Source of the DNA: the human T2T-CHM13v2.0 reference genome, Homo sapiens
Strand: one strand, 5' to 3'
DNA: 64,000 nucleotides
Assembly (NCBI RefSeq): GCF_009914755.1
Contig: NC_060935.1
Shown here: one piece after another, positions 41,501 to 50,330 of the stretch
How positions within the stretch are numbered: position 1 is the first letter of the stretch
Layout of the letters: the number at the start of each line of letters is the position of its first letter
Translations under genes and position numbers: made by a program
Notes under the pieces: model-generated
What the model saw: only the letters and a program-made list of their open reading frames with translations
Told to the model about the DNA's origin: nothing
Database searches by the model: none

Positions 41501-42642
41501 TTTATATTTATTTATTTATATAATTATATTTATGTATTTATATTTATATAAATTTATATTTATAATTATGTAAATTTATATTTATATTTATTTAAACTTA
41601 TATTTATATAATATATAATATATAATATATTATATAAATATAAATATATAATATATTATATAAATATAAATATATAATATATTATATATTTATAAATATA
41701 TAATATATTATATATTTATATGAATATAATTTATTATATATTTATATTTATATAAATATTATATATTTATATTCATATAAATATATAATTTTATATATTA
41801 TATATTCATATAAATATATATTTATATTCATATGAATATAAATATATATTTATATTTATATGAATATATAATATATAAAATTATTATAATATATTATATA
41901 TATAATATATTATATATATAATATCTTTTATATATAATATATTATATAAATATATATTTATTTATTTATATTATATATTATATATTCATATAAATATATA
42001 TTTATATTTATATGAATATATAACATATAAAATTATATATTCATATGAATATAAATATATAATATTTATATAAATATAAATATATAATATAATTATATTC
42101 ATATAAATATATTATATATAATATATATAATATATTTATATATATTATATATAATATAATTATATTATATTATATATATAATATATTATTATATATATAA
42201 TTATATATTATATAATATATAATATATATAATAATATATATGATTATATATTATATAAATATATAATATATTATATATTTATATAATATATAATATATAT
42301 AATATATTAATATAATATATAATATATATGTAATATATATTATATAATATATAATATATGTAATATATATTTATATAATATATATTATATATGTAATATA
42401 TATTTATATAATATATATTATATATGTAATATATATTTATATAATATATATTATATATGTAATATATATTTATATAATATATATTATATATGTAATATAT
42501 ATTTATATAATATATATTATATATGTAATATATATTTATATAATATATATTATATATGTAATATATATTTATATAATATATATTATATATGTAATATATA
42601 TTTATATAATATATATTATATATGTAATATATATTTATATAT
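41501..42642. repeat. ~1.14 kb almost pure A/T low-complexity tract ending in a perfect 33-bp minisatellite (42360-42640)
   Basis: Single G recurs at 42360, 42393, 42426, 42459, 42492, 42525, 42558, 42591, 42624. Confidence 0.95.
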
Positions 42643-43227
42643 TAGCCCATGTTTTCATTGTATTGATTTTGTTTTCTTATTGAATTGTAGGCATTTTTAT
42701 TTTTTTTATTTTTATTTATTTATTTATTTATTTATTTCTGACCTGGGGGATGCTATAAACTGAATTCTGTGCCCCACTCCCTACCCAGTTCCCTACCCAG
42801 TTTCGTATGTTGAAGCTTTAACCCTTAATGTGATCGTATTTGGAGATGGGGTGTTTGGAAGTTTAATGTATTTATTTAAATTTTTTATTTCCATAGGTTA
42901 TTGGTGAACAGGTGGTGTTTAGTTACATGAGTAAGCTCTTTAGTGGTGATTTGTGAGATTTTGGTGCGCCCATCATCCGAGCGGTGTACACTGCCCCAAT
43001 CTGTAGTCTTTTTTTTTTTTTAATTATACTTTAAGTTTTAGGGTACATGTGCACATTGTGCAGGTTAGTTACATATGTATACATGTGCCATGCTGGTGCA
43101 CTGCACCCACTAACTCGTCATCTAGCATTAGGTATATCTCCCAATGCTATCCCTCCCCCCTCCCCCCACCCCACAACAGTCCCCAGAGTGTGATATTCCC
43201 CTTACTGTGTCCATGTGATCTCATTGT

Positions 43228-47980
<4,753 letters not shown>

Positions 47981-48434
47981 CTTTGTGGTTTTATCTACTT
48001 TTGGTCTTTGATGATGGTGATGTACAGATGGGTTTTTGGTGTGGATGTCCTTTCTGTTTGTTAGTTTTCCTTCTAACAGACAGGACCCTCAGCTGCAGGT
48101 CTGTTGGAATACCCTGCCCTGTGAGGTGTCAGTGTGCCCTTGCTGGGGGGTGCCTCCCAGTTAGGCTGCTCAGGGGTCAGGGGTCAGGGACCCACTTGAG
48201 GAGGCAGTCTGCCCATTCTCAGATCTCCAGCTGCGTGCTGGGAGAACCACTGCTCTCTTCAAAGCTGTCAGACGGGACATTTAAGTCTGCAGAGGTTACT
48301 GCTGTCTTTTTGTTTGTCTGTGCCCTGCCCCCAGAGGTGGAGCCTACAGAGGCAGGCAGGCCTCCTTGAGCTGTGGTGGGCTCCGCCCAGTTCGAGCTTC
48401 CCAGCTGCTTTGTTTACCAAATCAAGCCTGGGCA

Positions 48435-48743
48435 ATGGTGGGCGCCCCTCCCCCAGCCTCGCTGCCGCCTTGCAGTTTGATCTCAGACTGCTGTGCTAGC
48501 AATCAGCGAGACTCCGTGGGCGTAGGACCCTCCAAGACAGGTGTGGGATATAATCTCGTGGTGCGCCGTTTTTTAAGCCCGTTGGAAAAGCGCAGTATTC
48601 GGGTGGGAGTGACCCGATTTTCCAGGTGCCGTCCGTCACCCCTTTCTTTGACTTGGAAAGGGAACTCCCTGACCCCTTGCGCTTCCCAAGTGAGGCAGTG
48701 CCTCGCCCTGCTTTGGCTCGCGCACGGTTCGCGCACCCACTGA
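48435..48743 (+). CDS. L1 antisense ORF0-like reading frame (102 aa)
   Basis: MVGAPPPASLPPCSLISDCCASNQRDSVGVGPS...RVGVTRFSRC within ORF 48366..48743; ATG context gcaATGG; expression unknown. Confidence 0.6.
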   Translation: MVGAPPPASLPPCSLISDCCASNQRDSVGVGPSKTGVGYNLVVRRFLSPLEKRSIRVGVTRFSRCRPSPLSLTWKGNSLTPCASQVRQCLALLWLAHGSRTH

Positions 48744-48890
48744 CCTGCGCCCACTGTCTGGCACTCCCTAGTGAGATGAACCCAGTACCTCAGATGGAAA
48801 TGCAGAAATCACCGTCTTCTGCGTCGCTCACGCTGGGAGCTGTAGACCGGAGCTGTTCCTATTCGGCCATCTTGAATTGTAGGCATTTTT

Positions 48891-50330
48891 AAAAACAGAC
48901 TCTGGAGATGAATCTTTTCTAGTTATATACTTTGTAAGTATCTATACCGTAGATAACCTTTTATTTTGACTGAAATATCTTTTGTTGTGCAGAAGTTATT
49001 AATTTTGATGTATTTAACCTTAAATGTTTTCCTTTATGGCCTGTACTTATGTTGTGTTTAAGAAATAAATATTTTCTATGCTGAGGTCATACATACATGC
49101 TCCTCAGTTATAAAATTTTACAGTTTTTGCTTTTCACATTTAGATTTTTAATTCATCCAGAACCTTTTTGTGTATGGTGTTAATTTTAATTGTGCAGGGA
49201 GTTAATTTTAATTTCTGTCTTCTACATAAATAATCAACTCTCCCAAACTTTCACTAAATAATCTATTCATTCTGTTATACTTGATGACACCATATTCATC
49301 TATAGTGTATTTCCCCATATGGCTAGGTCTGTTTTTAGGCTCTTTATTTGGTTCTAATTATTCATTGATCTGTTCCTATGCCAGGTGCATATTTCATAAT
49401 TCGTCCAGCTTTTTGTCTTCTATTCTTGGCCCTTTCTTCTCTTGCATGCTTTTTAGGATCAAATTGTGAAATTGAGTGAGAAACCCTACCAAAATTTTAT
49501 TTGGAATTGCATTGATTTTAACAATTTAATTTGGGAATAATTAATGTCTTTAAGATTTTCTGTCTTCTCACATATAACTATGGCAAATATCTTCATTTAT
49601 CTAGATCTTTCTTTTAATAATGTTTTATAATTTTCATCATGAAACTTTCACTTTTTTTTAGATTTATTCCTAAATGCTTTGCATATTTTTGCAGTTTTGT
49701 AAGTGGGAATTTTTTCTATTCCATTTTTCTAATTATTACTTATTTATGAGTAAACTACTAATTTTGATATGTTGACCTAATGTTCAAAAATCTTGCTAAG
49801 TTATTTTATTAGTTCTCATATATTTTAAAATGACTTTCAAGTTTTCTATGTAATTCAACCGTATCTTCTAAAAATAAGAACAGATTTGACTTCAATTTTA
49901 AATTTATTTATTTTCTTGATTTGTGTGATTAACTTAGGTATCCAAGGCAGAGTTAAATAGAAGGGGCAATAAAGAATCATGGTCTTGTTCCTGACAAGAC
50001 AATACTTCTAAAGCGTTCCATTTTAAGTGTGATGTTTGCTACAGGTGTTTAATAGATACTGCTTATTAATCTGATGAAGTTTACTTTTACTCCTAGTTTA
50101 ATAAGAGGTTTTTATATTTAAATCATGAATGAATGGAGAATTATATTGGGTGCTTTTTCTGTACATATCGAGATAATATGCTGTTCTATCGTTGCATCTA
50201 ATAGTTTAGATCATAACTGGTTAATTTCCTGATGTTGAACTATCCTTGTAGTCTTAAGATAAACTATTTGTGGTCATAATCTATTACTGTCGTTAAAATA
50301 GTTTTGGATTTAATATTTATTCTCCTGTAT
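48891..50330 (-). mobile_element. Ancient L1M host element (continues the ~40740-41500 and 42643-42698 pieces)
   Basis: Degenerate antisense ORF2 motifs resume after the TSD. Confidence 0.6.

What the first reader, a model, noticed from the sequence alone, without database searches (positions are those of the whole stretch)
42680..43022. Germline L1 3' transduction: ~270 bp of foreign DNA carried inside the TSD
Seen: the duplication ttgaattgtaggcattttt (42680-42698; 48872-48890, followed by aaaa, a TTTT/AA endonuclease site) does not abut the L1 poly(T) at 43009-43021. Between them lie a second T-rich tail (42699-42737) and ~270 bp (42738-43008) made of an MLT1/MST-like LTR start, a ccctacccagtt tandem duplication and a truncated L1PB-type 3' end. 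Established: read-through of the weak L1 poly(A) signal gives exactly this two-tail structure. Inference: this tag identifies the parent L1, which had inserted in an L1PB 3' end at another locus.
Basis: partly seen in the sequence, partly recalled or inferred. Interest (0 to 1): 0.75.

Follow-up and report, generated by a model that had tools for sequence, protein, structure and literature searches.

The report
L1 carrying its lost parent's tag
A jumping-gene (LINE-1) copy on human chromosome 11 carries 271 bases that match one spot on chromosome 18, where its parent copy likely once sat but is absent in this genome; this is a real but ordinary example of a well-known process.

Summary
Observation confirmed. 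One target-site duplication (42680-42698 / 48872-48890) encloses a minus-strand L1, its T13 tail, 271 nt of foreign DNA and a second tail. The foreign DNA has one full-length match elsewhere, G000:C18:51,422,954-51,423,212 (9 substitutions in 259 nt; 4 derived here, 5 there). That site is empty: no young L1 in the 20 kb around it. The tag starts at an A4 site where Alu-sized insertions sit in paralogous old L1 ends. This is a 'parentless' 3' transduction (about 88%): the parent was probably never fixed and was lost. No sibling was found. No common poly(A) hexamer lies within 120 nt of the tag end.

About 615 nt (ORF1 end to ORF2 start) are replaced by a ~470-nt inverted copy of its own ORF2. 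The arms differ at only 4 sites, so this likely came after insertion. Its 5' UTR also starts the predicted lncRNA LOC102723568 in antisense.

Known mechanism, new instance; ape orthologues could not be checked.

The parts
42680..42698 (.). Target-site duplication, left copy (at the L1 3' side)
42699..42737 (-). Second poly(A)-derived tail, decayed to (TAAA)n; apart from its first AA it is not templated at the chr18 source
42738..42750 (-). Tag part 1: 13 nt of chr18 flank beyond the end of the LTR-like element
42751..42865 (+). Tag part 2: start of an old MaLR-type solo LTR (MLT1-like, name recalled), including one copy of the old L1's own 9-nt duplication (42857-42865)
42778..42802 (.). 12-nt tandem duplication; one unit only in the chr18 copy
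42866..43008 (-). Tag part 3: last ~143 nt of an old L1 3' end (L1PB-like, name recalled), with two AATAAA that were read through
43009..43021 (-). First tail (A13 in L1 sense): the parent's poly(A) plus the AAAA that begins the chr18 target site
43022..48874 (-). Near full-length L1 of L1PA2 or short-L1PA3 type (label inferred); about 11 nt missing at the 5' end; ORF1 and ORF2 broken
44243..44717 (-). ORF2 segment in place (arm A), donor of the inverted copy
46868..47342 (+). Inverted copy of arm A (arm B), replacing about 615 nt (ORF1 3' part, spacer, ORF2 5' end); junction homologies GAAGA (5 nt) and AG (2 nt exact, in a loosely similar stretch)
48435..48743 (+). 102-codon antisense ORF in the 5' UTR (ORF0-like, name recalled); same length in 9 of 20 relatives
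48638..48933 (+). Annotated first exon of predicted lncRNA LOC102723568: starts in the L1 5' UTR antisense, ends at GTAAGT (48934) in the flank
   Evidence: hub annotation
48872..48890 (.). Target-site duplication, right copy, followed by AAAAA; TTG shared with the L1 5' end

Best explanation
This L1 insertion carries 271 nt whose only full-length match found is an L1-free site on chromosome 18, and it is likely a 'parentless' 3' transduction from a parent L1 that once sat there and was later lost. Shown: one duplication encloses L1, tail, tag and second tail; the tag's source is unique among the hits; the source is empty; both tag copies have since mutated about equally. Inferred: an L1PA2-era element inserted at the GAT/AAAAGACTAC site in an old L1 3' end on chr18. 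Its transcript ran past its own weak poly(A) signal and the old L1's two AATAAA, and was polyadenylated about 260 nt downstream. That RNA was copied by target-primed reverse transcription into chr11. The chr11 daughter persisted, while the parent allele probably never fixed and was lost by drift or lineage sorting. Later, likely after insertion, a template switch during replication or repair replaced about 615 nt of the daughter with an inverted copy of its own ORF2.
For: Exact 20-nt repeat at both ends. One full-length hit besides the window among 40 scored of 1301 candidates, and among 40 scored of 100 for the LTR-side half. At chr18 both repeat parts continue beyond the tag, and the old L1 piece has its own 9-nt duplication, so chr18 is the source. 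blastn of the L1 body against 20 kb around the source gave no hit. The tag starts at AAAA; in 10 of 14 other loci selected for an A10 run before the same motif, the motif is duplicated 130-326 nt upstream, the mark of insertions at that site. Of the 9 substitutions, 4 are derived on chr11 and 5 on chr18. Nine of 259 fits the L1 body's 1.1-1.3% departure from relatives (expected 5.8-6.5, P 0.13-0.21). Parentless sources are reported in dogs and non-human primates (passages).
Against: The parent is not seen; only one genome was searched. None of 13 poly(A) hexamers lies within 120 nt of the tag's 3' end; the nearest AATAAA are 123 and 136 nt upstream. No sibling with the tag was found; the DNA searches score only the best 40 candidates, and the pattern search was exact-match. 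The A-run pattern selects for insertions, so it shows that the site is used, not how often. The AAAA at the tag start would also suit a template switch.
Confidence: 0.88

Rival explanations
1. RNA template switch: reverse transcription began on the poly(A) of an unrelated chr18 transcript, copied 271 nt, and jumped at AAAA onto the poly(A) of an L1 RNA. No L1 ever sat on chr18.
For: Explains the empty source and the lack of siblings. L1 chimeras with other RNAs exist (PMC13174262, abstract and passages). AAAA offers microhomology.
Against: The junction is the same site at which paralogous old L1 ends took insertions. The chimeras catalogued in that paper carry the foreign RNA 5' of the L1 (outline and passages only). 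About 10% of L1 insertions carry 3' transductions (passage in PMC2768975), a much higher prior.
Confidence: 0.06
2. The parent was fixed on chr18 and later removed precisely by recombination between its target-site duplications, or the immediate parent was an intermediate daughter at a third locus that is now lost.
For: Gives the same picture in one genome. Precise deletion is named as a less likely route for SVAs missing in one lineage (passage in PMC6139936).
Against: Needs an extra rare event. No third full tag copy among the scored hits. Only one tail follows the tag.
Confidence: 0.05
3. Two successive insertions at chr11: the tag arrived first (or was ancestral here) and the L1 later inserted at its edge.
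For: Old repeat fragments are common, and the tag start is an endonuclease-type site.
Against: An L1 inserted at the tag start would repeat AAAAGACTAC at its own 5' end. Instead the 5' end joins the outer duplication directly. The tag is 96.5% identical to chr18 but only about 85-91% to other paralogues, which cover part of it.
Confidence: 0.01
4. (About the internal inversion only.) The inverted copy arose during insertion, when the nascent cDNA folded back at GAAGA/TCTTC, copied itself for ~470 nt and returned to the RNA.
For: The geometry and junction homologies fit. The four changes shared by both arms could come from the parent; two are at sites that also vary among relatives (1 and 5 of 20). 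Gene conversion between arms could lower their divergence. The 95% interval for arm divergence (0.23-2.2%) reaches close to the expected value.
Against: Arms differ at 4 of 470 sites against 8.7-11.8 expected (P 0.064-0.008); arms versus tag, Fisher P 0.016. No copy closer than about 98% among 40 scored of 7338 candidates.
Confidence: 0.25

Closest known systems
L1 3' transduction (Moran 1999; Goodier 2000; Pickeral 2000; Szak 2003: seen only as references; catalogues in bioRxiv 10.1101/2021.07.12.451456 and PMC9311842: passages)
   Same: One duplication around L1 plus flank, two tails, interchromosomal source, length inside the reported 8-997 nt range.
   Different: No parent L1 at the source; no common poly(A) hexamer 10-40 nt before the end; the tag is almost all old repeat.
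'Parentless' 3' transductions (PMC7980453, PMC13141329, PMC4862182; passages)
   Same: The source of the tag is not next to an L1 (17 of 18 and 24 of 27 in dogs; the usual case in non-human primates).
   Different: Those are polymorphic recent insertions. This one is about 1.1-1.5% diverged from its relatives, so the parent is likely long extinct rather than segregating.
Twin-priming 5' inversion (bioRxiv 10.1101/2021.12.20.472354; passages)
   Same: An inverted L1 segment with microhomology and a deletion at the junction.
   Different: Here the inverted piece is internal, duplicates sequence 2.15 kb away, and the 5' part continues in sense to a nearly intact 5' end.
L1 antisense-promoter chimeric transcripts (recalled)
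   Same: An annotated first exon starts in the 5' UTR antisense and splices from a donor in the flank.
   Different: The model is predicted (XR_) and promoter activity was not tested.

Membership tests
Parentless L1 3' transduction | One target-site duplication encloses both L1 and foreign DNA | tested here: met
Parentless L1 3' transduction | L1 endonuclease-type site (TTTT/AA) at the insertion | tested here: met
   TTTTT/AAAAA at 48886-48895
Parentless L1 3' transduction | Tail between L1 and tag, and a non-templated tail after the tag | tested here: met
   T13 at 43009-43021; 42699-42737 absent from the source beyond AA
Parentless L1 3' transduction | Tag maps to one other locus whose sequence continues on both sides | tested here: met
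   C18:51,422,954-51,423,212
Parentless L1 3' transduction | Source locus lacks an adjacent donor L1 | tested here: met
   no blastn hit of the L1 body in 20 kb
Parentless L1 3' transduction | Outgroup orthologue shows one duplication copy and lacks L1 and tag together | not testable with these tools
   no ape genomes are held
3' transduction with parent in place | Full-length L1 immediately upstream of the source | tested here: not met
   not filed here
3' transduction with parent in place | Poly(A) signal 10-40 nt before the tag end (common, not universal) | tested here: not met
   13 hexamers scanned; nearest AATAAA 123 nt upstream
L1PA2 subfamily | Short 5' UTR lacking the 129-bp ZNF93 site (also true of some L1PA3 and of L1HS) | tested here: inconclusive
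   894 nt to the ORF1 ATG plus about 11 missing, colinear with 20 relatives; not aligned to a long-UTR copy; deletion described in PMC12403153 passage
L1PA2 subfamily | Best match to the L1PA2 consensus and its diagnostic bases | not testable with these tools
   no repeat library; 2.6-3.0% mean pairwise distance to relatives suits L1PA2 or young L1PA3 by recall
Twin-priming 5' inversion | The 5' portion of the insert is inverted and abuts the duplication | tested here: not met
   inverted piece is internal and duplicated; 5' end in sense

The most novel reading that the evidence does not exclude
The tag marks a vanished L1PA2-era source element at C18:51,422,949/950 that was segregating in the African-ape ancestor and survives in gorilla, chimpanzee or bonobo by incomplete lineage sorting. 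With an unrearranged orthologue of the daughter, this would give a parent-daughter pair split across species and date a self-templated 470-nt inverted insertion that left a long hairpin-forming repeat under an active promoter near EHF.
Probability: 0.15. Interest if true: 0.45.

Novelty: new member of a known kind. Interest (0 to 1): 0.27.

Why it matters
It matters little as a mechanism: 3' transduction and missing parents are established. As a locus it gives a base-precise address for an extinct source L1, which ape assemblies can check in minutes. It suggests that old L1 insertions were often made by parents that never fixed. The 99%-identical inverted arms could form ~470-bp double-stranded RNA if the element is transcribed, or invert the 2.15-kb spacer; both are untested. 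The element lies between EHF and APIP. By my rough coordinate conversion it is about 60 kb outside the reported cystic-fibrosis modifier peak, so no link is claimed.

Tried and rejected
Sibling search: DNA searches and an exact pattern (15 matches, 1 is this locus). None of the other 14 has a young L1 end before the motif; 12 of 14 show an Alu-type end (label recalled). Close-relative search with the 3' 1.7 kb: best about 98% (loci not cut out, so this rests on scores only). One inversion junction was searched with up to 1 mismatch and is unique; the other was not searched.

Papers: Szak 2003, Pickeral 2000 and the Science version of Hoyt 2022 are not held. Hoyt's Table S13 of CHM13 transductions could list this locus, and bioRxiv supplements are closed, so 'not in print' is not claimed. 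Search for L1PA2 + EHF + antisense promoter: 0 papers. LOC102723568: 4 papers, listing only, on sarcoidosis and bocavirus. Searches showed no title about this element. Supplements of PMC13174262 were listed, not read. PMC13192797 and PMC11702581 passages gave nothing on this locus. Link to the CF modifier peak: not supported (part 1 of 3 read). Sequential insertion and twin priming were rejected as above.

Full report
Observation. An exact 20-nt repeat lies at 42680 and 48872. Its first three bases on the right also read as the L1's 5' end, so the strict duplication is 16-19 nt. The right copy is followed by AAAAA, an L1 endonuclease-type site. In L1 sense (minus strand) the order is: duplication, L1 (48874-43022, about 11 nt short at the 5' end compared with relatives), A13, 271 nt of foreign DNA, a 39-nt A-rich tail decayed to (TAAA)n, duplication. 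Among exact 19-mers with at least 4 G+C, 300-10,000 nt apart, the window holds 12 pairs in 5 clusters; only this one sits at the L1's ends.

Source of the tag. A search of the window's own genome gave one full-length hit besides the window, G000:C18:51,422,954-51,423,212, among 40 scored of 1301 candidates; the other 38 cover only the old-L1 half at 86-91%. The LTR-side half gave the same single full hit among 40 scored of 100. I read contig C18 as chromosome 18 from its number. The copies differ by 9 substitutions in 259 nt plus a 12-nt unit that is doubled here and single there. At chr18 the old L1 piece continues upstream and has its own 9-nt duplication inside an LTR-like element that continues too, and the last 13 nt of the tag are flank beyond that element. 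So chr18 is the source and chr11 the copy. The family names L1PB and MLT1 are recalled and come from no call.

The parent is absent. blastn of the L1 body against 20 kb around the source found nothing at E 1e-5. The tag begins at GAGAT/AAAAGACTAC. An exact search for an A10 run before this motif gave 15 matches, one being this locus. Of the other 14, 12 have an Alu-type end before the run (label recalled), and 10 have the site duplicated 130-326 nt upstream. The position is thus a proven insertion target in paralogues, although the pattern selects for such cases. None of the 14 has a young L1 end there, so no sibling was found.

Age. Against 20 near-full-length relatives (the top 20 of 39 non-self hits), the L1 differs by 2.6-3.0% pairwise. 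It departs from the majority base at 1.12% of ORF2 plus 3' UTR sites, 1.46% of the 5' UTR and 1.72% of the kept ORF1. Using old paralogues as outgroups, 4 tag substitutions are derived on chr11 and 5 on chr18; one of the four rests on only 6 paralogues. Nine differences against 5.8-6.5 expected is unremarkable (P 0.13-0.21), so tag and L1 are of matching age. A 5' UTR of about 905 nt points to L1PA2 or short L1PA3 (129-bp loss described in a passage of PMC12403153); the label was not tested against a consensus.

Against the reading. None of 13 common poly(A) hexamers lies within 120 nt of the tag's end; two AATAAA lie 123 and 136 nt upstream and were read through. PMC9311842 found a signal within 10-40 nt for six of seven prolific donors (passage). 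The parent is inferred, not seen. A template switch from a chr18 transcript onto an L1 RNA would give the same layout; I give it 6%.

The ORF list shows no full ORF1 or ORF2, and a 475-nt inverted repeat joins 44243-44717 and 46868-47342. Against relatives, about 615 nt from the ORF1 3' part to the start of ORF2 are gone and replaced by the inverted ORF2 copy, with GAAGA at one junction and a 2-nt exact match in a loosely similar stretch at the other. The arms share four derived bases, two found in none of 20 relatives, so the donor was this element. They show five mismatches; I dropped one because it lies in the junction and belongs to the ORF1 side, leaving 4 of 470. Expected at insertion age: 8.7-11.8 (P 0.064-0.008); arms versus tag, Fisher P 0.016. 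The nearest relative among 40 scored of 7338 candidates is about 98% identical. The one junction searched is unique in the genome. A template switch after insertion is the likelier origin (about 75%). Fold-back of nascent cDNA during insertion, with later conversion between arms or a diverged parent, is not excluded. It is not a twin-priming 5' inversion (passages of bioRxiv 10.1101/2021.12.20.472354).

Surroundings. The annotated first exon of LOC102723568 (48638-48933) starts antisense in the 5' UTR and ends at GTAAGT in the flank, as expected for an L1 antisense-promoter transcript (recalled class; not tested). A 102-codon antisense ORF is shared with 9 of 20 relatives. The CF modifier peak is reported at hg19 chr11:34,776,532-34,819,022 (PMC4935763, part 1 of 3); by my rough conversion from recalled coordinates the L1 lies about 60 kb from it, so I claim no link.

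Comparison with what is known. About 10% of L1 insertions carry 3' transductions (passages of PMC2768975 and PMC4862182). The CHM13 preprint lists 183 high-confidence L1 3' events (passages). Sources without an adjacent L1 are called parentless: 17 of 18 and 24 of 27 in dogs (passages), and the usual case in non-human primates. Lost source elements are described for hominine SVAs (passages of PMC6139936). My searches showed no paper on this element. But Szak 2003 and Pickeral 2000 were not available, and the CHM13 transduction table is in a supplement I could not see, so it may be catalogued.

Verdict. Real, correctly interpreted, with its source site located and found empty in this genome: a new member of a known kind. 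Interest 0.27.

Noticed in passing
window 44243-44717 and 46868-47342: The L1 has lost about 615 nt (ORF1 end, spacer, ORF2 start), replaced by an inverted copy of its own ORF2. The arms share 4 derived bases (2 seen in none of 20 relatives) and differ at 4 of 470 sites; the one junction searched is unique in the genome.
   Followed up: yes
window 48638-48939: The first exon of predicted lncRNA LOC102723568 starts antisense in the L1 5' UTR and ends at GTAAGT just outside the insertion; the RefSeq enhancer 47978-48621 covers the 5' UTR. It looks like an L1 antisense-promoter transcript.
   Followed up: partly
window 48435-48743 (+): 102-codon antisense ORF in the 5' UTR (ORF0-like); 102 codons in 9 of 20 relatives and 71 in 5 of 20.
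   Followed up: partly
L026-L040: The GAT/AAAAGACTAC position in old L1 3' ends has taken insertions repeatedly: 10 of 14 loci selected for an A-run show the site duplicated 130-326 nt upstream. The rate relative to other sites was not measured.
   Followed up: partly
window 41503-42642: A 1.14-kb TA-rich tandem array with a 33-nt period ends about 40 nt before the left duplication copy; a candidate length-variable repeat.
   Followed up: no
L002 1071-1745 (G000:C18, near 51,422,500-51,423,200): The source is a nested structure: a solo LTR-like element interrupted by a ~290-nt old L1 3' fragment with its own 9-nt duplication. A second LTR-like fragment of the same kind lies about 2.2 kb away (L020).
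   Followed up: partly
L042 6178-6851: One of the fetched relatives has an older L1 fragment (about 74% identical) directly after its 3' end.
   Followed up: no
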